The notes: generated from the letters alone by a model not told the origin. A DNA stretch of 26,917 nt from Oxalobacteraceae bacterium (GCA_027486615.1 JAIXOW010000245.1:1-26917); one strand, 5' to 3'; numbered from the stretch's first letter, positions 4,228 through 17,885 are shown. Program-made: numbers and translations.

Positions 4228-4608
4228 TTAAATGAGTTGATAAACCATCCAAATCATTAATACCCAGATAATGACAACAACTAAAAGACCTAACAAGCTC
4301 TTGGGTTTAGATTGATTTTGTGTAGCCCACGCTCTAGCCTGATCAAGTGACTCATCAAGGATAGATTGGGGTATTAATTTTATTGCTACCCAAATCAAGA
4401 TTGGTAATAAAATAATTTCATCAACAAATCCCAATATGGGAATAAAGTCTGGAATAAGGTCAATTGGGCTTAGGGCATAGGCGACGATGAAAATACAAAT
4501 CACCTTGGGCAGCCACGGTGTTTGTGGATTTTTAGTGGCAAACCAAAGCATGACTATCTTTTGCTTTAGTGATGTAGCCCAGCGTTTTAATTTTTCTATC
4601 AAATTCAT
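4228..4608 (-). CDS. YkvA/DUF1232 family membrane protein
   Basis: YALSPIDLIPDFIPILGFVDE is the DUF1232 signature. Confidence 0.75.
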   Translation of the reverse strand: MNLIEKLKRWATSLKQKIVMLWFATKNPQTPWLPKVICIFIVAYALSPIDLIPDFIPILGFVDEIILLPILIWVAIKLIPQSILDESLDQARAWATQNQSKPKSLLGLLVVVIIWVLMIWMVYQLI

Positions 4609-4664
4609 ACCCGAATCTTAACCTACAGTTTAAAAAATCAACCGAAGCTATTTTTTGTGGATCT

Positions 4665-4693
4665 TGGTGGCCGGTTACGGAAACGAACCGGCC
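4665..4693 (-). repeat. decayed tRNA-3'-end-like remnant (a)
   Basis: ATCTTGGTGGCCGGTTACGGAAACGAACCGGCC shares ATCTTGGTGG and GAAACGAAC with the 13441 fragment. It no longer folds as a T-arm. Confidence 0.4.
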
Positions 4694-4793
4694 TTACCTA
4701 GCATCTGACTAATAGTAGATTTAATTGCTATGTATGTAACGTATGTACATACATGGCGAAGTTATCCAAAATGGATTGCCATTCTTCGCACTA

Positions 4794-5039
4794 TTATTCT
4801 TCTGGGTGTATTGATTCAGGATCGAAAGATATTATCTCTAAAATTCCATCCGAGCTTTCTATGAAATTTGAACTTACATTTTGTTCGTCAAATACATACT
4901 CAATAAATTTCTGAGATATCAGCTTAGTATATTCACCAGCAAAGTCAAAACCAAACTATCAATCTTTAAGTTCTATCCTCGAACAGAATTTACCTCCTTC
5001 ACGAAGATCAATTTCTACCCGTGTTGTATGCCAATCTGA
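4794..5039 (-). pseudogene. SRPBCC/AHSA1-like gene fragment with in-frame TGA-TAG
   Basis: The minus-strand reading is SDWHTTRVEIDLREGGKFCSRIELKD**FGFDFAGEYTKLISQKFIEYVFDEQ... The N-terminus is missing and two adjacent stops sit at 4956-4961. Confidence 0.4.
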
Positions 5040-5064
5040 TTAGCTGAGTTATTTGTACTCAGGC

Positions 5065-5448
5065 TTATTTGCAGCTCGCTATCAACAACACTTCTTCCTT
5101 ACTGCCTCGTTCTGGTGTGGTCCATGCCCAAGCACCTTCGCTGAAATACACTATCATGTCAGTAGCCATCTCACCTTTGTGCCAAGTATGACCAATCTCG
5201 CGAAACAGTGATTTTTCACAGTCATATTCAAAGCGAAACATCTCAGAACGAAAATCTTTCCCATTTATATTCTGAATCTGCGCGTAATTGGCAATGTGAT
5301 AAACCTGTGGTCTTCCGGGTATAGTCGTTTTTATTGAATCGTGATCTATATAAAGCTTTGGATCATTTAAGGATGATGCTATGGGAGTCCAATCAGCATG
5401 TACAAATCCAGCACTAAAGAGAAGAAAAAAAGGGAGAAGTTTTTTCAT
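5065..5448 (-). CDS. secreted protein, surface-adhesin protein E-like
   Basis: Signal peptide MKKLLPFFLLFSAGFVHA, then W..I...YIDHDSI...EYDC...C near the C-terminus. Confidence 0.6.
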   Translation of the reverse strand: MKKLLPFFLLFSAGFVHADWTPIASSLNDPKLYIDHDSIKTTIPGRPQVYHIANYAQIQNINGKDFRSEMFRFEYDCEKSLFREIGHTWHKGEMATDMIVYFSEGAWAWTTPERGSKEEVLLIASCK

Positions 5449-5664
5449 AGAAGGAAATAAAAAAAGAGAGTGATAAAAAAATTAAGTAAGTAAAAAACTT
5501 TACTCTATTTATATGATACTACTAGGTGAAGGTTAGAGAATAAAACTAATAATTCATATTCTAGAATATATAGTGGAACATGCGACTACATGGGCTTTGA
5601 CTCAACCATGATGCTTCTATTTAAAATTATTTTTTCTACTAAGCTCAAGCTGTAGAATCTAATA

Positions 5665-6240
5665 ATGAAAACAATTATCCGTTGCCCTTGGTGTGAAGGT
5701 TTTGATCTCTACCGCCAGTATCACGACACAGAATGGGGTGTTCCACTTCGAGATAGTCAAAAGCTTTTTGAGCTTCTGATATTAGAAGGTGCTCAAGCAG
5801 GGCTTTCTTGGTCTACGGTTTTAAAGAAGCGAGAAAGCTATCGTGAGGCCTTTGATGGTTTTGATCCAAAAAAGATTGCAAGATATGGAGAGAAAAAAGT
5901 TGCGGAGTTAATGGCTAACCCTGGCATTGTTAGAAATCGATTAAAAGTGTCGGCAACTATTGGCAATGCTAAGGCTTACTTAGCTTTAGAAAAAAATGGA
6001 GAACCCTTTGATCAATTTTTATGGTCATTTGTACAAAACAAACCTATTCAAAATAAACGCCGCTTATTAAGCGAAGTTCCATCGAAATCTTTAGAATCTG
6101 ACGCAATGAGTAAAGCATTATTAAAAGCGGGATTCAAATTTGTAGGATCAACTATTTGTTATGCATTTATGCAGGCATCCGGAATGGTCAATGATCACCT
6201 CATTTCATGTCACAGATACTCAGTAGTAAAGAAACTTTAA
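5665..6240 (+). CDS. tag: DNA-3-methyladenine glycosylase I
   Basis: CPWC...YHDTEWGVP...LILEGAQAGLSWSTVLKKRE is the canonical Tag pattern. Confidence 0.9.
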   Translation: MKTIIRCPWCEGFDLYRQYHDTEWGVPLRDSQKLFELLILEGAQAGLSWSTVLKKRESYREAFDGFDPKKIARYGEKKVAELMANPGIVRNRLKVSATIGNAKAYLALEKNGEPFDQFLWSFVQNKPIQNKRRLLSEVPSKSLESDAMSKALLKAGFKFVGSTICYAFMQASGMVNDHLISCHRYSVVKKL

Positions 6241-6284
6241 TATCAACCGTCCCGTAACTAAATTCTTCCAAGCCTAAAAACAAA

Positions 6285-6322
6285 AAGACCTCGTTATTGC
6301 TAACGAGGGCTTTGCTTTTTTT
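6285..6322 (+). terminator. rho-independent terminator after tag
   Basis: CCTCGTTA-TTGC-TAACGAGG followed by a T-rich run. Confidence 0.55.
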
Positions 6323-6323
6323 G

Positions 6324-6348
6324 TGGTGTGGGGCGGAATCGAAACGAG
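6324..6348 (-). repeat. decayed tRNA-3'-end-like remnant (b)
   Basis: TGGTGTGGGGCGGAATCGAAACGAG matches TGGTGGCCCGGGGCGGAATCGAACCACC at 13441. Confidence 0.5.
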
Positions 6349-6376
6349 ATGAGGATGTCTGAACTGTTTATCTGAG

Positions 6377-6640
6377 TTACTCGTAGTGATATCGACAAGC
6401 GATCACAATGATTTGGTCTTTCTCAATGGCGTAGACAAGCCGATGCGTGTCATCAATTCGCCTTGACCAAAATCCCGCAAGGTTTTCTCGTAAAGGTTCT
6501 GGCTTACCTATACCGACTTCTGGGTCGCGCATCACTTCTTTAACAAGTAAGTTAATACGCTTAAGTGTTTTCTTATCTTGACTTTGCCAGTACACATAGT
6601 CTTCCCACGCTGCGTTGGTCCAGACTAACTTACTCCGCAT
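6377..6640 (-). CDS. yoeB: YoeB/Txe family toxin (mRNA interferase)
   Basis: WEDYVYWQ...GKPEPL...WSRRIDDTHRLVY...CRYHY. Confidence 0.9.
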   Translation of the reverse strand: MRSKLVWTNAAWEDYVYWQSQDKKTLKRINLLVKEVMRDPEVGIGKPEPLRENLAGFWSRRIDDTHRLVYAIEKDQIIVIACRYHYE

Positions 6641-6887
6641 CGACCAATCCCTTGGATTTGGTCTGACCTTTACGATATTGAGTGATAGATTTTTCTAAAT
6701 GTTTGGCGTTTGCAGGACTTTTCATCAGATGGAGTGTTTCCATCAAACTGTTGAAGGTGTCCAGAGACATCACGACTGCATCTTGTGCATCGCGTCTGGA
6801 AATCACAGTGAAGTCAGCGTCGTCCACGACTTGATCGATCACTTGTTTGAGTTGATTTCTTGCATCGGAAAAGTTGATCACTCGCAT
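6630..6887 (-). CDS. yefM: YefM/Phd family antitoxin
   Basis: MRVINFSDARNQLKQVIDQVVDD... overlaps yoeB by 11 nt. I start it at the internal Met (6887), not the ORF-track start (7001). Confidence 0.85.
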   Translation of the reverse strand: MRVINFSDARNQLKQVIDQVVDDADFTVISRRDAQDAVVMSLDTFNSLMETLHLMKSPANAKHLEKSITQYRKGQTKSKGLVDAE

Positions 6888-6990
6888 AGAGTCTCCGTAA
6901 GTACTTGTTCTATAAATAGTACAAGTATACGGACTATAAAGCAAGCTACAAGAGACAAAAAAACTATCTAAAGATGGATTTTGTACATCT

Positions 6991-7013
6991 TGGTGGCACA
7001 AGGTGGAATTGAC
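6991..7013 (-). repeat. decayed tRNA-3'-end-like remnant (c)
   Basis: ACATCTTGGTGGCACAAGGTGGAATTGAC. The ACATCTTGGTGG prefix is identical to the 13436 copy. Confidence 0.4.
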
Positions 7014-7132
7014 TAGCGCATAGGATGCTCAATTCTGTCTAATTACAGAGTTTTGATGGTTACAGCTTTCCCTGTAAAGTAGGCTAGAGTTAAGATTGCT
7101 TCATCTCATTAATATTTTTATATTTTCTAACT

Positions 7133-8095
7133 ATGCTAATTAATTGCGCCTCTTACCTAAACGGTAAAAAAATCGCTGATATTGAAATTGAACATATTAG
7201 CGATTACCTTGCCAATAAAGATTCTTTTGTTTGGGTGGCGCTGCTAGACCCAACTGTCGATGAGATTATGAAAATGAAGGAGGAGTTTGATCTTCATCCT
7301 TTGGCTGTGGAAGATGCGTTAACTGGTCATCAAAGACCTAAGATTGAAGAGTATGGTAATAGCTTGTTCGCCGTGATTCAGGTATTGAAGTATGACGATG
7401 ATATTTCAGTTGGTGAATTAGATATTTTTGCGGCGTCTGATTATGTTCTATCTGTTCGTAATCGATCTGATGTGACTTTCTTAGGAGTTAGAGAACGTTG
7501 TGAGCAAGAGCCGCAACTATTAAGACAAGGCTCAGGTTTTGTTCTCTACGCTCTTATTGACGCTGTTGTAGATCGCTATTTTCCGATTGTTGAAAGGTTA
7601 GAGCTGGAGCTAGAAAATATTGAAGAAACTCTTTTTGATGGGCGTTATACCAAGTCTAATATTGAAAGACTTTTTGCGCTTAAAAGAAAAGTGATGGTCG
7701 TTAAGCATGCCGTCTCTCCGCTAATGGAAGCAGTAGGAAAATTGTCGAGTGGTCGAGTGCCACCCATTTGCGCCAATAGCACTGAATATTTTCGAGATAT
7801 CTTAGATCACTTAACTCGTATTAACTCTGTTATTGAAAGCATACGAGATGCTATCGGGACAGCAATTCAAGTCAGCTTATCTGCGATTGCACTTGAACAA
7901 AATAATATTCAAAAACGCTTAGCATCTTGGGCGGCTATATTCGGTGTGGCAACTGCTTTTGCTGGAATTTGGGGCATGAACTTTGAACAGATGCCAGAAT
8001 TAAAGTGGGATCTAGGTTATCCAGTAGCAGTAGTTATTATCGTATCTGCTTGCTCATTCTTGTACTGGCGCTTTAAACGATCGGGCTGGCTATAA
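7133..8095 (+). CDS. corA: CorA family Mg2+/Co2+ transporter
   Basis: 320 aa with a GMNF motif followed by two C-terminal TM helices. Confidence 0.9.
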   Translation: MLINCASYLNGKKIADIEIEHISDYLANKDSFVWVALLDPTVDEIMKMKEEFDLHPLAVEDALTGHQRPKIEEYGNSLFAVIQVLKYDDDISVGELDIFAASDYVLSVRNRSDVTFLGVRERCEQEPQLLRQGSGFVLYALIDAVVDRYFPIVERLELELENIEETLFDGRYTKSNIERLFALKRKVMVVKHAVSPLMEAVGKLSSGRVPPICANSTEYFRDILDHLTRINSVIESIRDAIGTAIQVSLSAIALEQNNIQKRLASWAAIFGVATAFAGIWGMNFEQMPELKWDLGYPVAVVIIVSACSFLYWRFKRSGWL

Positions 8096-8149
8096 GTTTG
8101 TCCTTGCGCTTTAAACGATCGGGCTGGCTATAAGTTTGTCCTTGCGCTT
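8069..8149. repeat. perfect 38-bp tandem duplication (2 copies plus 5 nt) spanning the corA stop
   Basis: CGCTTTAAACGATCGGGCTGGCTATAAGTTTGTCCTTG occurs at 8069-8106 and again at 8107-8144, then CGCTT. Confidence 0.9.
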
Positions 8150-8150
8150 A

Positions 8151-8747
8151 TCAAATTTGTAGCTGGAAACTCAAATGGGCATCTACCGAAGGAAATTCAC
8201 TTACCAAAATGCTGTACACGCAAGTATCTCGAATACTTTCCTTAGCATCTGGATGTCGATTAATTTGGTGGCTTCGTAATATGCCGTCTAGCTTCGCTCC
8301 TAATCTCTCAATACCTCTACGACTTTGATGATTAAAAAAATGTGTTCGGAATTCCACAGCAATACAATCTAACCTCGTGAATGCGTAACGCAACAGCATC
8401 AATTTACATTCCGTATTAATCGCCGTTCGCTGAACCGACTTCCTATACCAAGTAGATCCTATTTCTAGTCTACGATTTTCTTGGTCAATATTCATGTATG
8501 TTGTCATTCCAATGGGGTTGCTATTGGCATCCAAAATACAAAATGGATTCATGGAGCCTAACTGCTGTAAGCCCAAACGTCTCTCAATCTCTTTTGCCAT
8601 TGTCGTGGGTGATGGAATACTCGTATACCAAAGTTTCCAAAGTTCACCATCTCTAACGGCAGCACATAAACCATCATGATGCGCCATAGTTAATGGCACC
8701 AATGAGGCATGCTTACCTTGTAGGGTTACTGGATCAGAGAATTTCAT
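8151..8747 (-). CDS. GNAT family N-acetyltransferase (RimJ/RimL-like)
   Basis: 198 aa with an Acetyltransf_3-like layout, including L.PL...H...L and E.G..W. Confidence 0.75.
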   Translation of the reverse strand: MKFSDPVTLQGKHASLVPLTMAHHDGLCAAVRDGELWKLWYTSIPSPTTMAKEIERRLGLQQLGSMNPFCILDANSNPIGMTTYMNIDQENRRLEIGSTWYRKSVQRTAINTECKLMLLRYAFTRLDCIAVEFRTHFFNHQSRRGIERLGAKLDGILRSHQINRHPDAKESIRDTCVYSILVSEFPSVDAHLSFQLQI

Positions 8748-8916
8748 AACGTTTCATATCTAAGGCTGTTTGACTTAATTCTGCCATAGACAAAGATGCT
8801 ATGTGTTGTCATGACTGCTTATATTAAATATGCGAACTGATTTGAATGATGGGTTAAATACGATTTTAAAAACGGAATATAGTATATTTACGTATCGCTA
8901 TTATTAAGGAGTTCTG

Positions 8917-9312
8917 ATGCGTTTCATCTTGCCGATTATGCTATTAGTGGTAGGCATTATTCACATCTTGCCACTATCTGGAGTGCTCAGTGCTGCTAGG
9001 TTATTTGAACTTTATGGAATGACGTTTGATGATCCGAATTTAGAAATTTTGATGCGTCATCGAGCTGTTTTATTTGGATTACTAGGAATTTTTCTTATCT
9101 GTTCTGCTTTTATGCCTAGCCTTCAACTTCCTGCTCTGATTGCAGGATTTCTAAGTGTAGTTTCATTTTTATATTTGTCCTATACAGTTGGTGGATATAA
9201 CGAACAAGTGAATCGTATTGTTATAGCTGACAAGATAGCGTTAGTTTGTCTAGTAGTGGCTCTAGTTTCTTATCTAGTAAAAATTTTTAATACAGAACAA
9301 GTGGCTATGTAA
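8917..9312 (+). CDS. hypothetical 4-TM membrane protein
   Basis: 131-aa hydrophobic ORF with a GGAG Shine-Dalgarno sequence upstream. Confidence 0.5.
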   Translation: MRFILPIMLLVVGIIHILPLSGVLSAARLFELYGMTFDDPNLEILMRHRAVLFGLLGIFLICSAFMPSLQLPALIAGFLSVVSFLYLSYTVGGYNEQVNRIVIADKIALVCLVVALVSYLVKIFNTEQVAM

Positions 9313-9338
9313 AAAGTCACCTAGTTGGGAATTCATAA

Positions 9339-9355
9339 AGTCTAGTTACTGGGCG
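9339..9355 (+). repeat. 17-nt hairpin palindrome, copy 1 (degenerate)
   Basis: aGTCTAGTTACTGGgCG lies 27 nt after the stop of 8917..9312. Confidence 0.5.
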
Positions 9356-9512
9356 CTTGTTGATTGTTTAATGATGAGTTAATTATTTATATAAATTTTG
9401 CAATCATTGCGACTTAGTTTCTGAACATTTTCCGATATCATAATAAATGTATTAATAATTAGCTCCTTTTTAATTACAGATAAATTTAAAAATTTTTATT
9501 AGGAATCAAATC

Positions 9513-9860
9513 ATGTTTGCAGAATTAATAGACAAACTTATTGATGAATACAATTCTGACCCAAGAAATAAAATCTTTATCAATGAAGAAATTTTATTGG
9601 CTTCAGCAAAAGAAGAAACTGGTAATGATGTTTCTACTGACCAATTACGAAGTGCAATAAAAAATTTCCTATCTGGCGAAATGGAAGATGACGATTATTC
9701 CATTTATGACGGTGCTATCTATGCATGTGCGGTTGCCTCAAATAATTGCTTTGGTAATCCCGAAGAACATGAAGATGATGACGACTACAGCGTAGATTAT
9801 GAAATTGATTGGATTGAAAGTGACGACGGTTCATTTTGTGCCGAGATTCGTCCGTCTTAA
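9513..9860 (+). CDS. very acidic small hypothetical protein
   Basis: 115 aa rich in D/E (EDDDY and EHEDDDDY runs), with a GGA Shine-Dalgarno-like sequence upstream. Confidence 0.45.
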   Translation: MFAELIDKLIDEYNSDPRNKIFINEEILLASAKEETGNDVSTDQLRSAIKNFLSGEMEDDDYSIYDGAIYACAVASNNCFGNPEEHEDDDDYSVDYEIDWIESDDGSFCAEIRPS

Positions 9861-9990
9861 CCAATGTGCGATTTATCGTTTTAAACGACAAAGGGGGCAC
9901 GCTAATCAGGATTGAGTATCGCCACTATAAGGATTTAATGCCTAATAACTGTCTGGACTTTTAGCAGGGTGAGCTAATTGGTGATGTGAC

Positions 9991-10020
9991 AAAAAAAAGA
10001 CTGTCTAGGCAGTCTTTTTT
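9991..10020. terminator. bidirectional rho-independent terminator
   Basis: A8-GACTG-TCTAGG-CAGTC-T6. Confidence 0.6.
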
Positions 10021-10027
10021 CATATCT

Positions 10028-10054
10028 TAGAGGCACAAGGCGAAATCGAACCGG
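10028..10054 (-). repeat. decayed tRNA-3'-end-like remnant (d)
   Basis: ATATCTTAGAGGCACAAGGCGAAATCGAACCGG shares GGCACAAGG with remnant (c). Confidence 0.45.
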
Positions 10055-10167
10055 TTTTCGGAAACTCCAACTTTTGAGAGAATGGAGCCATTAATAATAC
10101 GAATAAACTTTACCTGAAGTCTGGGATCGCGCAATACGACTGGAGCAGGAAGACTAAGTAAGCCCTC

Positions 10168-10671
10168 ATGATCGAGCTTAAATCATTGAACAAAGACCAT
10201 ATGGCTGATGTCCTGCGAATTCAGGAACACTGCTATACCGAGATAGAGCCTGAATCGCTCGAGTCACTTCAGGCGAAGATTTTGTCGTCGCCTAGTACTT
10301 GCCTGATCGCTGAATCCTGCGAAGGACCGGTTGGGTATCTGATTGCGGTACCCATTATTTATCCTCACTTACCAGCTTTAAACTCTCCAACTTTTGAGAT
10401 TTTAGAAGGTGCAGATACGCTCTACATCCACGATCTTGCCGTTGTGAGTGCCGGACGAGGGAAAGGTGTAGCTCAGGAGTTGATGCGTGCTTCAATCAAT
10501 GCCGCGAAAAGCAAGGGACTATCGCATGCCTGCCTAGTAGCGATTCAAAGCTCACAAAAATTCTGGGAACAGTTCAGATTTGAGGTGGTGGCGGAACCGG
10601 CCAAAGAGCTTATGCCCAAGCTGGCGAGTTATGGCGCCAGTGCACAGCTTATGCGCGCTTCGAAAATATGA
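10168..10671 (+). CDS. GNAT family N-acetyltransferase
   Basis: The acetyl-CoA motif IHDLAVVSAGRGKGVAQELM is present. GC is about 50%, higher than the flanks. Confidence 0.8.
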   Translation: MIELKSLNKDHMADVLRIQEHCYTEIEPESLESLQAKILSSPSTCLIAESCEGPVGYLIAVPIIYPHLPALNSPTFEILEGADTLYIHDLAVVSAGRGKGVAQELMRASINAAKSKGLSHACLVAIQSSQKFWEQFRFEVVAEPAKELMPKLASYGASAQLMRASKI

Positions 10672-10802
10672 GCTTGGCTTCTGACAGAACTTTGTGGCGG
10701 AAACTATCGGGTGCGGTGAAGTTGTGGGACAGTTATGGAGCGGCTCAGGCGCTAAAATAAAAACGCCAAGCAGAGTAGCTTGGCGCGCTATGCCAATGTT
10801 CT

Positions 10803-10836
10803 TGGAGGCTAGGGGCGGAATCGAGCCGCGCTGATG
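10803..10836 (-). repeat. decayed tRNA-3'-end-like remnant (e)
   Basis: TTCTTGGAGGCTAGGGGCGGAATCGAGCCGCG. Its reverse complement reads like a T-arm plus acceptor plus CCA. Confidence 0.5.
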
Positions 10837-10898
10837 ATGCCTGATCCTAGGCCTAATCGGTAGATTTAAATGATGAATATCATTTTGGTTTTTTAGAA

Positions 10899-11993
10899 TT
10901 AAGGAACTATGACAGTGAAAAGATAAACTGCAAAGATTACCAAATGGACTGTACCCTGCATGATAGTAGTACGTCCTGTACCTAAAGAAATTGATGCTAC
11001 AAGTAGTGATAGAAGCAAAAGTACAGTTGATTTAGCATCGATACCTAGTGAGAGGGTTAGTCCGTACATTAAAGAAACAATTGCAACAGCAGGAATCGTC
11101 AATCCAATACTAGCCAATGCTGAACCTAGCGCTAGATTAAGGCTAGTTTGTAATCGATTGGCTCGCGCTGCTTGGTAAGCAGCAATACTTTCGGGTAGCA
11201 AAACTACCGTGGCAATGATAACGCCAACAAGTGATTTTGGCGCACCAACACTTGCTATAAAACTTTCTAAAGTGGGGGAGAGAGCTTTAGCTAACAACAC
11301 TACCGCAACTAGGCATGCAAGCATAAGAACGGCGCTGAGTTGAGTCATCTTTTTTGTTGGCGGAGGTGCGTGAACTGTTTCATCTGCCACCTCAGTTATT
11401 GGTAGAAAATAGTCTCTATGTCGTACAGTCTGAACTAAGATGAAAGTAGCATAAAGTATGAATGAGACAATTGCGATAAACGATAATTGACTGCTACTGT
11501 AAAAAGGACCTTGGGTAGTTGTTGTGTAATTGGGTAGGACTAGGGTGAGAACTGAAATCGCAGCCAAGGTCGCTAATGAAGCAGATACACCAAGTAAGCC
11601 AAAAGATTGTTCTAGATGCCGACTTGCGCCACTTAGCAAACAAATCCCAACCAAGCCATTAAGTATGATCATCACTGATGCAAAAACCGTATCTCGAGCT
11701 AAACTGCTTTCGGATTCACCTCCAGCAATCATAAGCGATACGATAAGCGCAACTTCGATTGCAGTGACAGCAAGTGCAAGTACCAATGTACCGTAAGGCT
11801 CGCCAACCTTATGAGCTACCACCTCTGCATGAAATACTGCAGCCAGAATACTAGCAATTAGGCTAGCTATTAGTAGAAACTTAAATACGCTACTGAGTGT
11901 GAATTCGCTGGCAGTTAATAAGAGTCCCAAAAATAACCAAGCCACAATTGGGGATAATATTGTCCATGTAGGTAATCGATAAGATAATTTCAT
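10899..11993 (-). CDS. CaCA family calcium/cation:proton antiporter (ChaA-like)
   Basis: 364 aa with about 10-11 TM segments and a GEPYGTLVLALAVTAIEVALIVSLM alpha-repeat-like motif. Confidence 0.8.
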   Translation of the reverse strand: MKLSYRLPTWTILSPIVAWLFLGLLLTASEFTLSSVFKFLLIASLIASILAAVFHAEVVAHKVGEPYGTLVLALAVTAIEVALIVSLMIAGGESESSLARDTVFASVMIILNGLVGICLLSGASRHLEQSFGLLGVSASLATLAAISVLTLVLPNYTTTTQGPFYSSSQLSFIAIVSFILYATFILVQTVRHRDYFLPITEVADETVHAPPPTKKMTQLSAVLMLACLVAVVLLAKALSPTLESFIASVGAPKSLVGVIIATVVLLPESIAAYQAARANRLQTSLNLALGSALASIGLTIPAVAIVSLMYGLTLSLGIDAKSTVLLLLSLLVASISLGTGRTTIMQGTVHLVIFAVYLFTVIVP

Positions 11994-12071
11994 GTATTAA
12001 TTTTATATCAGTCTTAGCTTAAATTTTTGAATAAGTGAACATATAAAAATCTAATATTTGAGCATTCATTC

Positions 12072-12088
12072 CGCCTAGTTACTGGACG
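12072..12088 (+). repeat. 17-nt hairpin palindrome, copy 2
   Basis: CGCCTAGTTACTGGACG in the divergent intergenic region. Confidence 0.6.
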
Positions 12089-12127
12089 CGATAATCGATA
12101 GAATCAGCTTAATGTTAGGACCAATTA

Positions 12128-12475
12128 ATGAATCAAGTTAGAAAAAACAAAATTACCTTTTTCGCCATTACGTATTTTGCGTTATTGATGGCATTCAGCT
12201 TAATTTTTGATAAACCAATCAGGAGTATTTTTCTTTACGCTATTCCTGTTGTTATCATTGCAGCTCGTAGCGGTTGGCGTGCAGGTTTTTTTCTATCACT
12301 TCTTGCAACGCTTATTGCTTGGTTTGGACAAGCTTTTCCTACCGTTCCAGAAAATGCTGGTCTTGAATTTGAAGAAGCACTTATTACGCTAGCAGAACTT
12401 GTTATTGCTTCAGTTGTTGCATCAGCAGTTGCAAGAAAAATTTCTGGAGTGTCAAAAGATAAGCTTTTTGACTAA
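12128..12475 (+). CDS. hypothetical membrane protein
   Basis: 115-aa ORF with 3 hydrophobic segments. The overlapping 12207..12392 ORF is rejected. Confidence 0.45.
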   Translation: MNQVRKNKITFFAITYFALLMAFSLIFDKPIRSIFLYAIPVVIIAARSGWRAGFFLSLLATLIAWFGQAFPTVPENAGLEFEEALITLAELVIASVVASAVARKISGVSKDKLFD

Positions 12476-12597
12476 GACATTCAAAGTAATTTTATAGAGC
12501 TTAAGTTATAAAGTTACTTACTGATTTTTGAATTAGATATCGTCTCTTAACGAGATGCTTCCAAGTCTCAATTTCTCTATTGCGGACTTTGCCTACT

Positions 12598-12621
12598 TGG
12601 TGGCTCTAGAGGTAATTGAAC
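12598..12621 (-). repeat. decayed tRNA-3'-end-like remnant (f)
   Basis: CTACTTGGTGGCTCTAGAGGTAATTGAAC. Confidence 0.4.
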
Positions 12622-12632
12622 TAAATTAAGAA

Positions 12633-12916
12633 TTTACTGATCTCAATCTATCTCATCATTGTTCAAAAGCGTAACTTATATCTTGCTCTTGTAGACGTAA
12701 AGATGAATGAGAATATTTCAAAAAATTTTCTTTATGCCTTCTGTAATACAAAAGTCCTTCTTTGATGCTTGCTACTGTTGCGCCTTGTTCTAGCATTTTG
12801 TCCCACAAGTTCCAATCCTCTTGAGGATGAACGCCATCTTCATATCTTTTTTTGTAGCCAATTTTTTGTCCAAAATCTGTACGGTACATCATGGATCCAT
12901 GATGCTGGCCTTGGCG
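12633..12916. repeat. direct repeat copy A (3' part of the GT2 gene plus 23 nt downstream)
   Basis: Collinear with 26634-26917 with no indels. I count about 13 mismatches in 284 positions by eye. Confidence 0.9.
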
Positions 12917-13330
12917 ATTCCAATACAAGTCACCTTTATAAGGGCGCGTCTCACCAGGCACTCTCGTTAAGATTTCTTCCTTTAATTCACCAGTTACAAC
13001 AATGTCGTAGGTGACGATATCGGTGCTGGCATTAGAAAGTAATTCAATTGCATCTGAACGCAACCAATTATCAGCGCCTATGAAAAGCACATACTCTGTA
13101 TCCACCTTAGACAGCATGTTGTGAAAGTTATCTACAACGCCCAAATTTTTTTGTCTGAAAATGTATTCAATATCTGGATATAGACTTGGTAGGTGGCTGC
13201 AATCTAAACCTCCGTCATCGACGAATAAAATTCTTGAGGGGAGGGTTGATTGAGATAGCAATGACTCTATGCAATGCGCTGCAAGATGTCCGTATCTATA
13301 AGAGGCGATGATGACTGTAATCATATTCAT
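12656..13330 (-). CDS. family 2 glycosyltransferase
   Basis: [27 protein letters not shown]...FVDDG is the GT2 N-terminal pattern. The ORF-track start at 13375 is an alternative. Confidence 0.8.
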
Positions 13331-13406
13331 TGGCACGAGAGCATGAGGGCATAAGAAAACGACTTTGCCGCTCATTGGAGCTCTTTTGGCAACTTTTCAT
13401 CGCAAT

Positions 13407-13432
13407 AAAAAAACCACCCGAAGGTGGTTTTA
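13407..13432. terminator. bidirectional terminator hairpin (ACCACC-CGAA-GGTGGT)
   Basis: A-run, 6-bp GC stem with GNRA-like loop, then a T-run. The same unit recurs at 26565 and a variant at 25555. Confidence 0.6.
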
Positions 13433-13440
13433 TTACATCT

Positions 13441-13485
13441 TGGTGGCCCGGGGCGGAATCGAACCACCGACACAAGGATTTTCAA
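13441..13485 (-). pseudogene. tRNA-Phe(GAA) 3' fragment (anticodon loop to CCA), likely an att-site remnant
   Basis: Reverse complement is TTGAAAATCCTTGTGTCGGTGGTTCGATTCCGCCCCGGGCCACCA, giving an intact T-arm, acceptor 3' strand and CCA. The sequence where the 5' half should be (13486-13516) is unrelated. Confidence 0.75.
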
Positions 13486-13629
13486 CTCTGTTAATAGACT
13501 GATAACTATAATTAATTCAGTGCGATAACTTGCCGTGAATTTGCTGTCCTATCTACAATGCACCAACTGGTACGCTCAGGATCGCACTGGCGATGCCCTC
13601 ACTTAAGCACCTATCTCAGCGGGTTCAAG

Positions 13630-13646
13630 CGTCCAGTTACTGGACG
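13630..13646. repeat. 17-nt hairpin palindrome, copy 3 (perfect, C-G at the variable pair)
   Basis: CGTCCAGTTACTGGACG. Confidence 0.7.
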
Positions 13647-13701
13647 GTGACCGACTCAAGGATTCCTTCTCCTTGGGTTCGTGGACTTTGCTATGGCGCA
13701 C

Positions 13702-13718
13702 CGTCTAGTTGCTGGACG
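13702..13718 (+). repeat. 17-nt hairpin palindrome, copy 4 (TTG loop)
   Basis: CGTCTAGTTGCTGGACG. Confidence 0.7.
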
Positions 13719-13963
13719 ATGAAGTAGGGAAAGGCTGGTCATCTTGCGGCACTTACGTATTGAGCAGCGGAGTCAATTAATAGTGTTGCCTCAATGCAGT
13801 TCTTGAAACTTTTAGTTGTATGGATGACCCAGGGTAGCCTATGCTTATCATTATAAAGAAAGTATGCAGAGCTGAATTAGTGAGTCGTCTATAGTTTATG
13901 TGGCAAGTTCGCCAGACTGGGCAATAAAGTCAAAGTAGAAAAAAAGAAAAAAAACGCAATTAC

Positions 13964-14731
13964 ATGACTAAGAAAATTATTGAACCTTCAGAGTACACAC
14001 GCCCACCAATTACTGAGGCTGTAATTGAGATTGTCTTCGCAGGAGAAGTAAAAAATGATGTCGTAAATAAAGTCTCGAAAAAATTCAAAAAATACTATAC
14101 AAACGACATACCAGTAACTCAATATGATGTTCGAGTGGATGTGCAGCCAAGTACAGCTGGGGGGGCGACAGCAAATCTAAAAAAAGAAAAAAAGGGGCAG
14201 CGTTTATCGACCTCGGATGAGACAGAAATATTGGTAATATGGCCGAATTCAATTTCTGTCTCCCAAATTGCCCCATATAAAGGTTGGGATATATTTCACA
14301 AAAGATTCGCTAGAGATTTTAAACTTCTTAAAAAAGAAGTGGGTATACGAGAGATAAAGCGAATTGGAGTTCGCTATATCAATAGAATTGATATTCCGGC
14401 AGTCGAGCCAATAGTTGAGCACGAAGAATATATAAATATTTTCCCCAAGCTGCCAGATAATTTGACCCCACTTACAGCCTATATGGTGCAAGCCGAACTT
14501 CAGCTGCTTGATGTAGGTGCAAACTTGCGTATCAATTCCTCCGCTGTACCTTCGCCGATAGCTGATCATGCATCTTTTGTTATTGACTTAGATTTTTATC
14601 GAATCCACGATATGCCGAGTAGTGATAAAAAATTAAATGAATATTTAAATCTCATAAGAGAAAAAAAGAACGAAATATTTGAATCTTTGGTGAAGGACAA
14701 AGCTCGAGGATTGTTTAAGAACGAGAAATAA
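13964..14731 (+). CDS. hypothetical protein, TIGR04255-like (recall-based)
   Basis: 255 aa. The N-terminal YTRPPITEAVIEIVF resembles the N-terminal hallmark of the TIGR04255 family as I remember it. First gene of a tightly packed operon. Confidence 0.55.
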   Translation: MTKKIIEPSEYTRPPITEAVIEIVFAGEVKNDVVNKVSKKFKKYYTNDIPVTQYDVRVDVQPSTAGGATANLKKEKKGQRLSTSDETEILVIWPNSISVSQIAPYKGWDIFHKRFARDFKLLKKEVGIREIKRIGVRYINRIDIPAVEPIVEHEEYINIFPKLPDNLTPLTAYMVQAELQLLDVGANLRINSSAVPSPIADHASFVIDLDFYRIHDMPSSDKKLNEYLNLIREKKNEIFESLVKDKARGLFKNEK

Positions 14732-14738
14732 AAGGTAA

Positions 14739-15371
14739 ATGGTCATGGAATATCAACACAAACTCGAAACTAATAAAGTGTCCAATCGCATGTCGATAGG
14801 CGGGTTTCCAATTCCAAGAGATGTAGATGCAAATTCGAGCACGCCAAACTACTCTCAAGAATTAATTTCAAAATTTCGAGATGGAAAAAACACCACAGCA
14901 CTTCCGTCAAAAGAAAGTATTTTGAAGGAAGGTGATACTAGACTCGAAATTTTCAATGCTACGGCGGCTGCCAAGATGCTGACTTCCTATGTATCGATGC
15001 ATCTAAAAGACGAATGGAGAAAAAATATTTTTTTTCAACTAGACTTGATACACGAATTTGAAGAGTGGGATGACGAATTAAGCCCGATAGGGCGTGACTC
15101 AATGACAACCTTCTTGAAAGCGATGCTAAAAGTCAACCTAAAGAAATATCCGGGACTAGGTCTGACCAATAAAGGGTATTTAATTGCCGCGTGGACAGAA
15201 AATCAAAAAAAACTCACTTTGGAATTTCAGCCAAAAGATAAGGTTAAATGGATTGTGTCTCAAGAATTGAGCCCAGAAGAAACTGAAAGGGCGGCAGGCT
15301 TTACAAATATCAGAAGGCTATACAGGTGCATTGCTCCTTATGGGGTGCAGAGTTGGTTCACAGAGAAATAA
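14739..15371 (+). CDS. hypothetical protein (no recognisable motif)
   Basis: 210-aa ORF starting 8 nt after the upstream stop. Its TAA stop (15369-15371) runs into the A16 tract. Confidence 0.5.
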   Translation: MVMEYQHKLETNKVSNRMSIGGFPIPRDVDANSSTPNYSQELISKFRDGKNTTALPSKESILKEGDTRLEIFNATAAAKMLTSYVSMHLKDEWRKNIFFQLDLIHEFEEWDDELSPIGRDSMTTFLKAMLKVNLKKYPGLGLTNKGYLIAAWTENQKKLTLEFQPKDKVKWIVSQELSPEETERAAGFTNIRRLYRCIAPYGVQSWFTEK

Positions 15372-15829
15372 AAAAAAAAAAAAAAGGGAGTTTGATACCT
15401 GACAGAGACCATGTAATAAGACATGTTCCTCTAGCTAAAACCCGTCGCGACTCGGATGGAAAAGTGTGCGGAATATTGCCGCAAGCTATAGAGCGTCGCG
15501 ACAGTGAAGAATATTTGTCAGTCAGTCATTATGAGCATTTTTCTGGCTCGCAAGTTCAAAAATTGTTTAGCGTCAAAAATGCGATAGCTTCTGGCAAGCG
15601 AAGTGGAACTCTAGGAATTAAAGGGCTCCTTGCAAAGGCAAACGTTGGTAATCTTAAGCAATCTGTCGAGAAAAAGACTGCGAAAAAAATTCGCGTTGCT
15701 TATTTGCCTACCAAAAAAGACTCTTCGCATTCAGGTGTATATAAACTTCCTGAAGAGGATTCCGAGTTAATGGATGCTTTGGCAAGTGAGGTTTTTTCGG
15801 AAATTTTTTTCTTGAATGATATAAAGTGA
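15326..15829 (+). CDS. hypothetical protein with an A16 tract in its 5' coding region; start uncertain
   Basis: The open frame begins at GTG 15326 (or TTG 15353) and overlaps the upstream gene. There is no usable start with a Shine-Dalgarno sequence downstream of the A-run, so the run is probably coding (KKKKK). Confidence 0.45.
   Translation: MHCSLWGAELVHREIKKKKKGSLIPDRDHVIRHVPLAKTRRDSDGKVCGILPQAIERRDSEEYLSVSHYEHFSGSQVQKLFSVKNAIASGKRSGTLGIKGLLAKANVGNLKQSVEKKTAKKIRVAYLPTKKDSSHSGVYKLPEEDSELMDALASEVFSEIFFLNDIK
15370..15385 (+). repeat. homopolymeric A16 tract
   Basis: Counted directly: one A at 15370, ten at 15371-15380 and five at 15381-15385. Confidence 0.95.
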
Positions 15830-15883
15830 AAACGAAATCCTTGAGTAAATACTTTAGTAATTACAAGCTCAAGGAGACAGCAA

Positions 15884-16243
15884 ATGCGTTTTTACGAATT
15901 CGCCTCACAACCCAGACCAGTCCTGAAGATCAGCCAGCAGCAAGCTGCGAATCAAAGCAACAAACTACCCACGCCCTTCCCAACAAATAAACAACCAACT
16001 CCCGCACCAGCATCAATTAATGTCTATCCAGAAGAATGGCAGCATAAGTGGGTACAAAAATATCTAGCTGCAAAGATAGCCCGTAACGCACAGACCATTA
16101 AGCCAACTGAAGAAGATATAGTGCGGGCACAGATGATGTATGCAGATGCTAAACGTAAAGCTGATCAAGAGTACGAAGAAGTAAATGGAAAGTCAGACGA
16201 AGAATCTGGCTGGCAAGGTGAACATCGTTGGGTCAAGCGATAA
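15884..16243 (+). CDS. hypothetical P/Q-rich then charged small protein
   Basis: 119-aa ORF with a strong AAGGAG Shine-Dalgarno sequence 6 nt upstream of the ATG. Confidence 0.5.
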   Translation: MRFYEFASQPRPVLKISQQQAANQSNKLPTPFPTNKQPTPAPASINVYPEEWQHKWVQKYLAAKIARNAQTIKPTEEDIVRAQMMYADAKRKADQEYEEVNGKSDEESGWQGEHRWVKR

Positions 16244-16250
16244 ATTCAAA

Positions 16251-16277
16251 CTCAGCGTCCAGCAACTAGACGCTGAG
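16251..16277 (-). repeat. 17-nt hairpin palindrome, copy 5 (reverse orientation, TTG loop, extended to a 12-bp stem)
   Basis: CTCAGCGTCCAGCAACTAGACGCTGAG between convergent stops. Confidence 0.75.
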
Positions 16278-16290
16278 CATCTGTAAAGAA

Positions 16291-16731
16291 CTACTTCTTG
16301 AAACCGGACTTCAATCCTGCGGAAGCAGTTTCAATCTGTGCATCTAACTCACCAGCTTCTACTGCTCGTTTAATCGTCTCTAGCGCAACGACTAAATCAT
16401 CTGCACTGGCTACTTCAACACTAGGCTTGCCCTTTGCTAGTTCTAGCGTCCAGCTTCCATATCTAATTGATACACAGACTTTGCCATTTTCAGTAACAAA
16501 CCACCAAGGACGTATACGTTTGGGCATTTCTACTTGTTTACGCAAACCAGTGTCTCTATCTTTAACAGAACGAAATCGAGTAACAACAAATGGCTGTCCG
16601 TTTATTTGACTTCTAGCTAACTGTATCTGCTCCCACAGTTTGCTGCTTAATTTATTTCTCCGAAGTTGGATAGTGGGCATCTGCTGTGGCTTTTTTATAG
16701 CTACTAATTTCAACGTACTCAGTGTGCTCAT
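16291..16731 (-). CDS. conserved hypothetical island protein (DUF6641-like, recall-based)
   Basis: 146 aa with RPWWF...GK..VSIRYGS..LELAKGK...AGELD. I associate this pattern with genomic-island proteins. Confidence 0.5.
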   Translation of the reverse strand: MSTLSTLKLVAIKKPQQMPTIQLRRNKLSSKLWEQIQLARSQINGQPFVVTRFRSVKDRDTGLRKQVEMPKRIRPWWFVTENGKVCVSIRYGSWTLELAKGKPSVEVASADDLVVALETIKRAVEAGELDAQIETASAGLKSGFKK

Positions 16732-17134
16732 AACGTGATCCTTTCATAAAGTTGGAAGAGCACACTTAAGTTAAGCCCGATTCGCCGAAATGGACAACCT
16801 CAATTTGTCCGAAATCACTAAAAACCACCTAATTTCCCCCTATAAAACCAATGGTTTTCTTGTATCAGGCATAAATATTTTTGCGAGTTGCTTGGTTACG
16901 ATGTAAGGGTCGCCTAAGAAAAGCAGTCGCTGGCGTATAGCCGAGTAGTTGTGCTTAGTGAGTAACTCAAGTGACAAATGAGTAACTCTGACAAGCAACA
17001 AGACCTAGTAACTTCCCCTTTGGGGTTTGCAACTTCTTACTCGACTCGACTACACGTCGGCAACATTTTTTCTTCTTCTCGCAACTGCAACCAAACCAGC
17101 AACATAGCGATGAGAAACTACAAGGAAAAATCAA

Positions 17135-17605: not shown

Positions 17606-17650
17606 ACAGCCCAGCACATACAACTAGCTCAGCTTAGTAATACATCAAAC

Positions 17651-17724: not shown

Positions 17725-17743
17725 AATTTAAAATCAATTGAAG

Positions 17744-17766: not shown

Positions 17767-17885
17767 AGTCCCATATTAAAAATATAAAACAAGCAAAAGC
17801 AATACTCTTATCGGTGTGCATAAAATCTAAGCAGTCAAATCCTGCGAAATTCATAACGAAATACGATAAATAATTAGATGTAAAA

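What the first reader, a model, noticed from the sequence alone, without database searches (positions are those of the whole stretch)
4665..13485. Chain of decayed tRNA 3'-end remnants partitions 8.8 kb into single-function gene packets, ending in a fresh tRNA-Phe fragment
Seen in sequence, on the minus strand: 13441-13485 is a clean tRNA-Phe(GAA) 3' portion covering the anticodon loop, variable loop, GGTTCGATTCC T-arm, acceptor strand and CCA. Its 5' half is replaced by unrelated DNA.

Progressively degraded look-alikes occur at about 12598, 10803, 10028, 6991, 6324 and 4665. They share (A)TCTTGGTGG and GGCGGAATCGAA-type cores, and most lie right after a terminator hairpin. There may be further copies at 25590 and 26593, plus a very weak candidate near 3107-3135.

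The intervals hold the following content.
- An adhesin-E-like gene plus tag.
- yoeB-yefM alone.
- corA, a GNAT and two small ORFs.
- One GC-rich GNAT.
- A CaCA antiporter plus a small ORF.
- One GT2 gene.

Established knowledge: integration into a tRNA 3' end duplicates that end, and repeated integration leaves arrays of att remnants.

Inference: this is an accretion hotspot at tRNA-Phe. The packets are unusually small and lack integrases, so either extensive decay or a cassette-like capture mechanism acting on the tRNA-derived site is possible. Two sequence subtypes, GGCACAAGG versus GGGGCGGAATC, hint at more than one source.
Basis: partly seen in the sequence, partly recalled or inferred. 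Interest (0 to 1): 0.68.

Follow-up and report, generated by a model that had tools for sequence, protein, structure and literature searches.

The report
Gene-cassette array anchored at tRNA-Phe
The chain of tRNA-like remnants is real: it is an old, decaying array of small gene cassettes at the tRNA-Phe gene of a freshwater Oxalobacteraceae bacterium, and relatives carry intact, reshuffled arrays made mostly of toxin-antitoxin genes, an integron-like arrangement with no integrase next to it.

Summary
13441-13485(-) is the exact 3' 45 nt of tRNA-Phe(GAA). A 96%-identical strain contig (L002) has the intact tRNA at that spot, so the window's tRNA was split by an island carrying integrases (13486 rightwards).

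All six look-alikes (4665, 6324, 6991, 10028, 10803, 12598) match a repeat profile built only from other species, at 15.8-67.6 bits. The best score in 200 shuffled windows was 9.9 bits. The candidate at 25590 is marginal, 26593 is supported only by homology, and 3107 is not supported.

There are two repeat types. Class A is the exact tRNA 3' part and marks classical island ends. Class B is a conserved unit of about 100 nt: a left arm, a 25-nt core identical to the tRNA, then a terminator. Class B bounds 0.55-6 kb cassettes without integrases.

Related genomes and about 80 lake metagenome contigs carry co-oriented class-B arrays beside tRNA-Phe (mode 600-700 bp). Most cassettes are toxin-antitoxin modules, and their order is permuted between contigs. 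Several synteny breakpoints fall on the repeats.

The best reading is an additive island built by site-specific insertion of cassettes at the tRNA 3' end, with a recombinase supplied in trans. That recombinase is inferred, not shown. This is a new variant of a known kind.

The parts
13441..13485 (-). Class-A repeat: exact 3' 45 nt of tRNA-Phe(GAA), anticodon loop to CCA. It is the distal attachment-site copy of the island inserted to its right.
13410..13431 (-). Intrinsic terminator hairpin (AAAACCACCTTCGGGTGGTTTT) directly after the tRNA fragment; head of the GT2 cassette.
12656..13375 (-). GT2 glycosyltransferase cassette. It holds the first position after tRNA-Phe in L002, L004, L019-L021, L024, L025 and L052.
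12574..12626 (-). Decayed class-B repeat, the tail of the GT2 cassette. The recurrent synteny breakpoint lies just upstream at 12639.
10899..12475 (.). CaCA antiporter (10899-11993, -) plus ORF115 (12128-12475, +). The same packet lies between class-B repeats in L134 and L164.
10763..10849 (-). Class-B repeat (10788-10849) followed by a terminator hairpin (10763-10786).
10168..10671 (+). GNAT acetyltransferase packet.
10019..10064 (-). Decayed class-B repeat; L020 synteny breaks at 9998 in its terminator.
7133..9860 (.). CorA, GNAT, ORF131 and ORF115b block. It is composite: 8135-9389 is shared at 93.5% with the distant L052, and its internal breakpoints are not at tRNA-like repeats.
6969..7037 (-). 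Decayed class-B repeat plus a decayed terminator; head of the yefM-yoeB cassette.
6377..6890 (-). yefM-yoeB toxin-antitoxin cassette. It is absent as a unit in L020 and occupies other array positions in L029, L038, L102, L167 and L171.
6273..6365 (-). Best-preserved class-B repeat, with the conserved terminator AGCAAAGCCCTCGTTAGCAATAACGAGG.
4746..6240 (.). Tag glycosylase (5665-6240, +), adhesin-E-like gene (5065-5448, -) and an AHSA1 pseudogene with in-frame stops (4746-5040, -).
4663..4694 (-). Class-B repeat belonging to the AHSA1 cassette, homologous to L025 8312-8402. L001-type strains break at 4655.
4228..4660 (-). DUF1232 cassette with its own head terminator. In L021 it sits between repeats at the second position.
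13486..23921 (.). Integrated island that split tRNA-Phe. It carries tyrosine recombinases at 22617-23921(-), 21333-22574(-) and 18015-18611(+), an AAA+ clamp-loader-like gene, DUF6641 and a TIGR04255 gene. Its right end was not found in the window.
25552..25635 (-). Possible very decayed class-B repeat plus terminator after the GIY-YIG gene (marginal, 7.2 bits).
26553..26917 (-). Second, partial GT2 cassette copy with its decayed repeat and terminator. It suggests the intact tRNA-Phe lies about 0.5 kb beyond the window end.

Best explanation
This is a tRNA-Phe-anchored additive genomic island: an array of small cassettes that carry no integrase.

Structure of a cassette (shown by comparison). 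In tRNA sense, each cassette has its own terminator hairpin, then one to a few genes, then a conserved left arm (GGATCAGRCATCCTCAGCCCGG). Cassettes are joined through a core of about 25 nt that is identical to the T-loop-to-CCA end of tRNA-Phe.

How it grows (inferred). A circular or incoming cassette carrying left arm, core and terminator recombines with the 3' end of tRNA-Phe or with an existing repeat. This regenerates the tRNA, gives it a new terminator and pushes older cassettes away from the tRNA. The recombinase is not encoded in the array, so it must act in trans. The only candidates seen at this locus are the tyrosine recombinases of tRNA-Phe-specific islands like the one at 13.5-24 kb.

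State in this genome. The array is old: cores are mutated and AHSA1 is a pseudogene. It is largely fixed among close strains. The newest event is the integration of an integrase-bearing island whose 45-nt identity block starts in the anticodon loop, which split the tRNA and left the fresh fragment at 13441-13485.
For: Real repeats, one orientation. The intact tRNA sits at the fragment's position in a sister strain.

The same repeat family forms co-oriented arrays next to tRNA-Phe in at least 15 species-level genomes and about 80 lake metagenome contigs. None were found in viral contigs.

160 non-identical copies give a roughly 97-nt consensus, with 70-99% conservation across the left arm and core.

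Of 189 inter-repeat intervals, the median is 777 bp and the mode is 600-700 bp.

There are 88 cassette types and their order is permuted:
- tRNA|YefM-YoeB|BrnTA in L029, against tRNA|BrnTA|YefM-YoeB in L171.
- ParE then BrnTA in L035 and L116, against BrnTA then ParE in L125, L178 and L182.
- Types 23|24 in L139, against 24|23 in L149.

The terminator after a repeat usually travels with the distal cassette, and left-arm variants travel with the proximal cassette. This places the junction in or just after the tRNA-identical core. The L001/window junction and the L020 hybrid repeat agree.

Cassettes are far more similar between lineages than a housekeeping gene. yefM-yoeB is 84-89% identical where ubiH is about 66%. 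GNAT+ORF131 is 93.5% and GT2 88% identical where ubiH is 63%.

Toxin-antitoxin identities were confirmed by Pfam. No recombinase was found in arrays or in their distal flanks, but int413-type islands recur at this tRNA. In L122 a cassette sits between the tRNA and an older island, as the insertion-at-the-tRNA model predicts.
Against: No recombinase has been tied to class-B sites. The island's own identity block starts in the anticodon loop, whereas class-B identity with the tRNA starts only at the T-loop, so the island integrase may not be the enzyme.

No excised circle or circular contig was seen.

The hairpin that the repeat could form (GCCCGG/CCGGGC) shows no compensatory changes.

Some cassette-terminator linkages have exceptions. 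Some window breakpoints (8100-8135, 9389-9449) are not at repeats.

GT2 stays at the first position in several lineages while variation occurs distal to it. That needs either repeated recent arrival of GT2 or recombination at internal repeats.

The metagenome contigs were selected with a class-B pattern, so one copy per contig is biased towards the consensus.
Confidence: 0.6

Rival explanations
1. Homologous recombination only. The roughly 100-nt repeats, together with the conserved tRNA/ubiH flank, act as portable homology. DNA taken up from relatives replaces, inserts or deletes cassettes through RecA-dependent crossovers, as with Neisseria minimal mobile elements. No dedicated site-specific recombinase is involved.
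For: No integrase is found in or beside the arrays. The repeats are long and 70-99% conserved between species. The deletion or insertion of yefM-yoeB between two repeats is equally what repeat-mediated homologous recombination would give. Some breakpoints lie away from the repeats.
Against: It does not explain where the repeats came from, or why every new cassette type carries the same left arm. Junctions cluster in a core of only about 25 nt although the terminators are often also shared. Many different cassettes are joined directly to the intact tRNA, which is always regenerated. Cassettes move between lineages whose flanks are only about 65% identical.
Confidence: 0.2
2. Classical serial integration of full-size integrative elements or prophages at tRNA-Phe, each later whittled down by deletion to one or two cargo genes.
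For: Class-A fragments and integrase-bearing islands do integrate here (window, L024, L120, L160). Truncated integrases exist in L104 and L122. AHSA1 is a pseudogene in the window.
Against: Unit sizes peak sharply at 600-700 bp. Repeats flanking toxin-antitoxin cassettes are well conserved. No integrase fragments lie inside the small cassettes. The same cassettes occur in permuted orders. The class-B left arm is a distinct conserved sequence, not the island end seen next to class-A copies.
Confidence: 0.12
3. The repeats are functional RNA elements: tRNA-like 3' structures plus a terminator that process or stabilise cassette transcripts. They would be maintained for that role rather than as recombination sites.
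For: Each unit ends in a terminator. About two thirds of small cassettes have their main ORF in the tRNA sense, with the repeat just after the stop codon.
Against: One third of cassettes are antisense to the repeat. There is no covariation in the candidate helices. No Rfam family matches apart from the true tRNAs. The T-stem is disrupted in the consensus.
Confidence: 0.03

Closest known systems
Additive flexible genomic islands with recurring tRNA 3'-end repeats, for example fGI-2 of 'Ca. Methylopumilus' (last 20 bp of tRNA-Lys repeated; PMC10872708)
   Same: Freshwater planktonic Betaproteobacteria. A variable island sits beside a tRNA and is punctuated by direct repeats of the tRNA 3' end. 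Island size ranges from one gene to tens of genes, and no bona fide integron is present.
   Different: Here the repeat is a conserved unit of about 100 nt (left arm, 25-nt core and terminator), not just 20 bp of the tRNA. Units are mostly 600-700 bp toxin-antitoxin modules. Cassette permutation and cassette/terminator linkage are documented here. The target is tRNA-Phe.
Prochlorococcus genomic islands and tycheposons (bioRxiv 10.1101/2020.12.28.424599)
   Same: Integration at an island-specific tRNA. New arrivals push older material away from the tRNA. Partial tRNAs are scattered through the island, and tyrosine recombinases are specific to one tRNA.
   Different: Tycheposons are integrase-carrying elements, many with replication modules. 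The class-B cassettes carry neither. The window's island has tyrosine recombinases, but no primase or helicase was detected, and its integrase clade was not compared with tycheposon integrases.
Sedentary chromosomal integrons and CALINs (clusters of attC sites lacking an integrase)
   Same: Arrays of co-oriented repeats bound single-gene cassettes of about 0.5-1 kb. They are rich in toxin-antitoxin modules, the order is shuffled between relatives, and there is one fixed insertion point.
   Different: There is no intI. The repeats are tRNA-derived and conserved in sequence rather than being attC hairpins. The insertion point is a tRNA gene. Cassettes bring a terminator, not a promoterless ORF behind a Pc promoter.
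Cis-mobilizable elements (CIMEs) and site-specific accretion in Streptococcus ICEs and IMEs (review PMC5704250)
   Same: Elements without an integrase, flanked by attachment sites, sit in tandem with an integrase-bearing element at a tRNA or other 3' gene end and could be mobilised in trans.
   Different: CIMEs are viewed as deletion derivatives of ICEs or IMEs and are kilobases long. Here there are dozens of uniform mini-cassette types with no sign of ICE ancestry.
Dehalococcoides ssrA-specific genomic islands (PMC3146451)
   Same: Tandem islands are separated by direct repeats of the 3' end of a small RNA gene, and a shared mechanism mobilises different cargo.
   Different: Those islands each have an adjacent integrase and are much larger. 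The target there is tmRNA.

Membership tests
tRNA-targeted additive genomic island (tandem attachment-site remnants) | [quoted passage not shown] | tested here: met
   An intact tRNA-Phe sits at the fragment's position in L002 and beside the arrays in more than 30 related genomes and contigs. In the window itself the tRNA is split and its 5' half is absent.
tRNA-targeted additive genomic island (tandem attachment-site remnants) | Direct repeats derived from the tRNA 3' end, all in the tRNA's orientation | tested here: met
   Seven copies lie on the minus strand, above every shuffle control.
tRNA-targeted additive genomic island (tandem attachment-site remnants) | Presence or absence of segments between relatives, with breakpoints at the repeats | tested here: met
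   Breakpoints at 4655, 6342/6989, 9998, 12639 and 13485-13490. Exceptions occur at 8100-8135 and 9389-9449.
tRNA-targeted additive genomic island (tandem attachment-site remnants) | A cognate integrase encoded by the inserted units | tested here: not met
   This is met only for the class-A island. No recombinase was found in any class-B cassette or in the distal flanks of the arrays.
Integron | An intI integron-integrase gene adjacent to the array | tested here: not met
   Pfam and NCBIfam found none at the array. The conserved flanks are ubiH on one side and cupin or NHase genes on the other.
Integron | attC sites: imperfect palindromes with R''/L''-L'/R' boxes, conserved in structure rather than sequence | tested here: not met
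   The repeats are conserved in sequence and tRNA-like. The only candidate hairpin shows no compensatory changes. By inspection there is no GTTRRRY core.
Integron | Arrays of short, mostly single-gene cassettes whose order differs between relatives | tested here: met
   The size mode is 600-700 bp, there are 88 cassette types, and orders are permuted. ORF orientation is only about 2:1 in one sense.
Tycheposon | A tycheposon-clade recombinase plus a replication module (primase or helicase) within an element flanked by a full and a partial tRNA | tested here: inconclusive
   The island has three tyrosine recombinases and a clamp-loader-like AAA+ gene, but no primase or helicase hit. [quoted passage not shown]
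CIME (cis-mobilizable element) | Flanked by attachment sites, with no recombination or transfer genes | tested here: met
CIME (cis-mobilizable element) | Excision or mobilisation by the integrase of a co-resident element | not testable with these tools
   This needs an experiment or read-level data. No circular contigs were found among the held loci.

The most novel reading that the evidence does not exclude
Freshwater Oxalobacteraceae possess an integron-like gene-capture system that is independent of IntI. The 3' end of tRNA-Phe serves as the fixed insertion site. A conserved tRNA-derived site of about 60-100 nt, with its own terminator, marks free-standing mini-cassettes that are mostly toxin-antitoxin and small accessory genes. 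A recombinase encoded elsewhere, perhaps by transient tRNA-Phe islands, excises, reinserts and exchanges these cassettes between lineages.
Probability: 0.45. Interest if true: 0.78.

Novelty: new variant of a known kind. Interest (0 to 1): 0.6.

Why it matters
tRNA-linked additive islands are a main source of strain-level gene content in small-genome plankton, yet how single genes get in and out of them is mostly unknown.

Here the unit of exchange can be defined to within about 25 nt. It consists of a terminator, cargo genes and a conserved arm. The same units turn up in different orders, and in lineages whose ubiH housekeeping gene is only about 65% identical.

That gives a concrete model to test. 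The site sequences, candidate recombinases and natural empty and occupied alleles are all in hand.

It would also be a second, tRNA-based route to an integron-style cassette bank. And it would offer an explanation for why toxin-antitoxin modules pile up next to a tRNA gene.

Tried and rejected
- Chance similarity was rejected by two shuffle controls.
- No intact tRNA, and no tRNA-Phe 5' half, was found anywhere in the window.
- The candidate at 3107-3135 was not recovered by either test. The 20/33 match at 3212-3244 lies inside an ORF and is at chance level.
- A structural (attC-like or RNA) role for the GCCCGG/CCGGGC and GGAT/ATCC helices has no support, because there are no compensatory changes. 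There is no Rfam hit either.
- I looked for the recombinase with tblastn and jackhmmer using the window's integrases, with motif scans, and by listing ORFs of distal flanks and of large inter-repeat intervals. Recombinases appear only in class-A islands.
- The class-B pattern and int413 relatives gave nothing in viral contigs.
- Exact-protein look-ups for GT2, the porin and int434, meant to extend the window rightwards, found nothing on record. The ORF123 contigs were too short to help.
- No circular contigs that could be excised cassettes were found.
They are not the class A/B split, and why two repeats share them remains unexplained.

Full report
**1. What is in the window**

ARAGORN finds no tRNA gene. 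On the minus strand, 13485-13441 reads TTGAAAATCCTTGTGTCGGTGGTTCGATTCCGCCCCGGGCCACCA and is followed by a strong terminator hairpin.

- DUF1232: 4228-4608
- Adhesin_E: 5065-5448
- Tag: 5665-6240
- YoeB/YefM: 6377-6890
- CorA: 7133-8095
- GNAT: 8151-8747
- two small ORFs
- GNAT: 10168-10671
- Na_Ca_ex: 10899-11993
- a small membrane ORF
- GT2: 12656-13375

To the right lies a block with three tyrosine recombinases (18015-18611, 21333-22574, 22617-23921), a clamp-loader-like AAA+ gene, DUF6641 and a TIGR04255 gene. After that come a porin, a GIY-YIG gene, a small ORF and a second, partial GT2 copy.

**2. Are the remnants real?**

Two independent tests say yes.

First test. Ungapped comparison with the 33-nt 3' end of tRNA-Phe gave 25, 25, 23, 22, 22 and 20 matches at 10803, 4665, 10028, 6324, 6991 and 12598. 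All are on the minus strand. The 99th percentile of the best score in 200 dinucleotide shuffles was 21.

Second test. I built an nhmmer profile only from repeats of other species. It hits the window at these positions, all on the minus strand:
- 6365-6273: 67.6 bits
- 10849-10788: 29.4 bits
- 12623-12574: 18.5 bits
- 7037-6969: 17.0 bits
- 4694-4663: 17.0 bits
- 10064-10019: 15.8 bits

The best hit in 200 shuffled windows scored 9.9 bits.

The three extra candidates fare differently. 25590 is marginal at 7.2 bits. 26593 is recognisable only because it lies next to the 95% duplicate of the GT2 3' end and resembles the equivalent repeat in L025. 3107 is not supported.

Decay is not progressive with distance. 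The copy nearest the tRNA (12598) is the worst preserved.

**3. The tRNA and the fresh fragment**

Exact-protein look-up of Tag returned strain-level contigs 94-97% identical to the window. L002 is collinear with window 5032-13490. It carries an intact tRNA-Phe(GAA) exactly where the window has the 45-nt fragment, followed by a ubiH-like monooxygenase gene.

tRNA-Phe next to ubiH is conserved throughout Oxalobacteraceae. The window has no similarity to L002's right flank and no tRNA 5' half anywhere.

So an element of at least 13.4 kb has integrated into tRNA-Phe, with an identity block that starts in the anticodon loop. The same island type (int413, int198, DUF6641, AAA+) sits at tRNA-Phe in L024, L120, L155 and L160. 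It is truncated in L104, L122 and L180.

The second GT2 copy at the window's right end is closest to the GT2 that abuts the tRNA in L019 (93%). By that synteny the intact tRNA should lie about 0.5 kb beyond the window. This is an inference.

**4. Two kinds of repeat**

I printed every tRNA-Phe-like copy in the related loci. They fall into two classes.

Class A is the exact 45-nt tRNA 3' part. It is found at the far end of integrase-bearing islands (window 13441, L024, L052, L063, L067, L073, L092).

Class B is a distinct conserved unit. Its consensus, from 160 non-identical copies, is:

AGCC GGATCAGGCATCC TCA GCCCGG TTCGATTCCGCCCCGGGCCACCA AGTA AGCAAAGCCCTCGTTAGCGATAACGGGGGCTTTTTGC

It consists of a left arm that only loosely resembles the anticodon arm, a roughly 25-nt core identical to the tRNA from the T-loop to CCA, and a terminator hairpin.

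The window's remnants are decayed class-B copies. The one at 6324 still has the typical terminator.

**5. How widespread**

Class-B arrays occur in many species-level genomes of freshwater Oxalobacteraceae (L022, L025, L027, L029, L034-L038, L052, L077, L087, L097). Massilia, Collimonas, Janthinobacterium, Herbaspirillum and Undibacterium show only the tRNA or class-A copies.

A class-B-specific pattern found 89 stretches in metagenome contigs, nearly all from lakes, and none in viral contigs. On these contigs the repeats are co-oriented. Whenever the contig reaches far enough, the array starts at tRNA-Phe, with up to 5-6 units per contig.

Of 189 inter-repeat intervals, the median is 777 bp and 70 fall between 600 and 700 bp.

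**6. What the cassettes are**

Clustering gives 88 cassette types. The commonest are BrnT/BrnA, YefM/YoeB, ParE/RHH and a zeta-toxin pair. MazEF, HigBA-like and VapBC-like modules also occur, along with adhesin-E, DUF1993, AHSA1, GT2 and CaCA.

In 51 small types the main ORF is in the tRNA sense in 34 and antisense in 16. The repeat is therefore a DNA-level boundary, not a 3' UTR element.

No recombinase lies in any small cassette, in the 4-6 kb intervals, or in the conserved distal flanks, which hold cupin, NHase, UDP-glucose dehydrogenase and similar genes.

**7. Evidence that cassettes behave as units**

(a) Order is permuted between contigs:
- tRNA|YefM-YoeB|BrnTA in L029, against tRNA|BrnTA|YefM-YoeB in L171.
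- ParE then BrnTA in L035 and L116, against BrnTA then ParE in L125, L178 and L182.
- Types 23|24 in L139, against 24|23 in L149.
- At least ten different types are joined directly to the intact tRNA.

(b) The hairpin after a repeat usually goes with the cassette distal to it. For example, the CCACCTTCGGGTGG hairpin always heads YefM/YoeB whatever lies upstream. Left-arm variants go with the proximal cassette. The boundary therefore lies in or just after the tRNA-identical core.

(c) Breakpoints against the window:
- L020 lacks exactly the yefM-yoeB unit, with 6342 joined to 6989 in one hybrid repeat.
- L019, L020 and L021 all break at 12639, at the start of the GT2 cassette's repeat.
- In L021, tRNA|GT2|DUF1232|class-B replaces everything from 4665 to 12638.
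- L001-type strains break at 4655, between the core and the DUF1232 cassette's terminator.
- L025 has the AHSA1 cassette plus its repeat (equivalent to window 4663-5036) at the second position.

(d) Cassettes are much more similar between lineages than the ubiH housekeeping gene:
- yefM-yoeB is 84-89% identical where ubiH is about 66%.
- GT2 is 88%, and GNAT+ORF131 93.5%, identical to L052, where ubiH is 63%.
- The CaCA packet is 84% identical in L134 and L164.

**8. Mechanism**

Shown: a repeat family derived from tRNA-Phe; cassette modularity; junctions in the core; horizontal spread; and island integration into the tRNA.

Inferred: cassettes insert by site-specific recombination between their site (left arm, core, terminator) and the 3' end of tRNA-Phe or an existing repeat. 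This regenerates the tRNA, supplies a terminator and pushes older units distally. L122 fits this, since a zeta cassette sits between the tRNA and an older, truncated island.

The enzyme is unknown. The int413/int434/int198 islands are the only recombinase carriers seen at the locus. However, their own identity block begins in the anticodon loop, so they may not act on class B.

Homologous recombination between the repeats cannot be excluded and probably contributes. Serial decay of full islands fits poorly with the size distribution, the conserved repeats and the permutations.

**9. The window's own array**

It is a fossilised example. Its cores are mutated, AHSA1 is a pseudogene with in-frame stops, and the array is nearly invariant among the strain contigs.

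Not everything is bounded by remnants. The GNAT+ORF131 segment (8135-9389) begins at a 38-nt tandem duplication of the corA 3' end, and its breakpoints (8100, 8118, 8135, 9389, 9449) lie away from tRNA-like repeats.

**10. Relation to what is known**

Additive flexible genomic islands beside tRNAs, with recurring tRNA 3' repeats, are established. Examples are the tRNA-Lys 20-bp repeats of 'Ca. Methylopumilus' fGI-2 (PMC10872708) and the Prochlorococcus islands shaped by tycheposons, with partial tRNAs and proximal insertion. Tandem accretion with integrase-less CIMEs, and the ssrA islands of Dehalococcoides, are also described.

My searches found no description of a conserved roughly 100-nt tRNA-Phe-derived cassette site, or of toxin-antitoxin mini-cassette arrays at tRNA-Phe. 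The library is incomplete, so this is not proof of novelty.

It is not an integron. There is no intI and there are no attC sites.

I rate it a new variant of a known kind, with interest 0.6.

Noticed in passing
window 12072, 13630, 13702, 16256, 17684, 19796, 21310, 22551, 25470, 26531 (each 17 nt); imperfect copy near 9339: A 17-nt palindrome, CGTCYAGNNNCTRGACG, occurs 10 times where 0 are expected in 100 shuffles. The copies are mostly intergenic (at least one overlaps the start of int413) and are concentrated in the island and the right part of the window. One also precedes int413 in L160. Its role is unknown; it could be a terminator, a REP-like element or a recombinase site.
   Followed up: partly
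window 8060-8135: A 38-nt tandem duplication of the corA 3' end lies exactly at synteny breakpoints 8100, 8118 and 8135. The adjoining GNAT+ORF131 segment (8135-9389) is 93.5% identical to a distant genome (L052) and is not bounded by tRNA-like repeats.
   Followed up: partly
window 18015-18611, 21333-22574, 22617-23921: The island carries two adjacent, divergent tyrosine recombinases (413 and 434 aa) and a 198-aa recombinase that is a catalytic domain only. The 413-aa and 198-aa genes recur together at tRNA-Phe in L024, L120 and L155.
   Followed up: partly
window 4746-5040 (-): An AHSA1-family pseudogene: 74% identical to the intact gene of L001 over residues 34-131, with in-frame stop codons. 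L001-type strains have the intact gene plus nitrile hydratase alpha and beta in place of window 4656-4745.
   Followed up: yes
window 9293-9355 and 25424-25486: A 63-nt segment, 83% identical between the two sites and including the palindrome, follows both ORF131 and the porin gene. The two otherwise unrelated packets therefore share a 3' flank.
   Followed up: no
window 26553-26600 versus 13395-13440: The terminator and the first roughly 15 nt of the GT2 cassette head (ATTGCGATGAA) are repeated after the second GT2 copy's decayed repeat and then break off. This suggests a former tandem GT2-GT2 arrangement that was later truncated.
   Followed up: no
window 2432-2874: Strain contigs L001 and L002 lack this part of the Dps/ferritin gene region, so only a 54-aa ferritin fragment is called there. 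This is variation outside the tRNA-linked array.
   Followed up: no
L099 283-6417 and L135 739-6872: A 6-kb unit flanked by two complete class-B repeats carries a 544-aa P-loop ATPase and four ORFs of about 190 aa, with no integrase. It may be a defence-type cassette.
   Followed up: no
window 6987-7019 and 10024-10056: Two non-adjacent repeats share the derived acceptor variant CCTTGTGCC. L019 has it too, but L020 does not. Neither simple decay nor the insertion model explains this, and gene conversion between repeats is possible.
   Followed up: no
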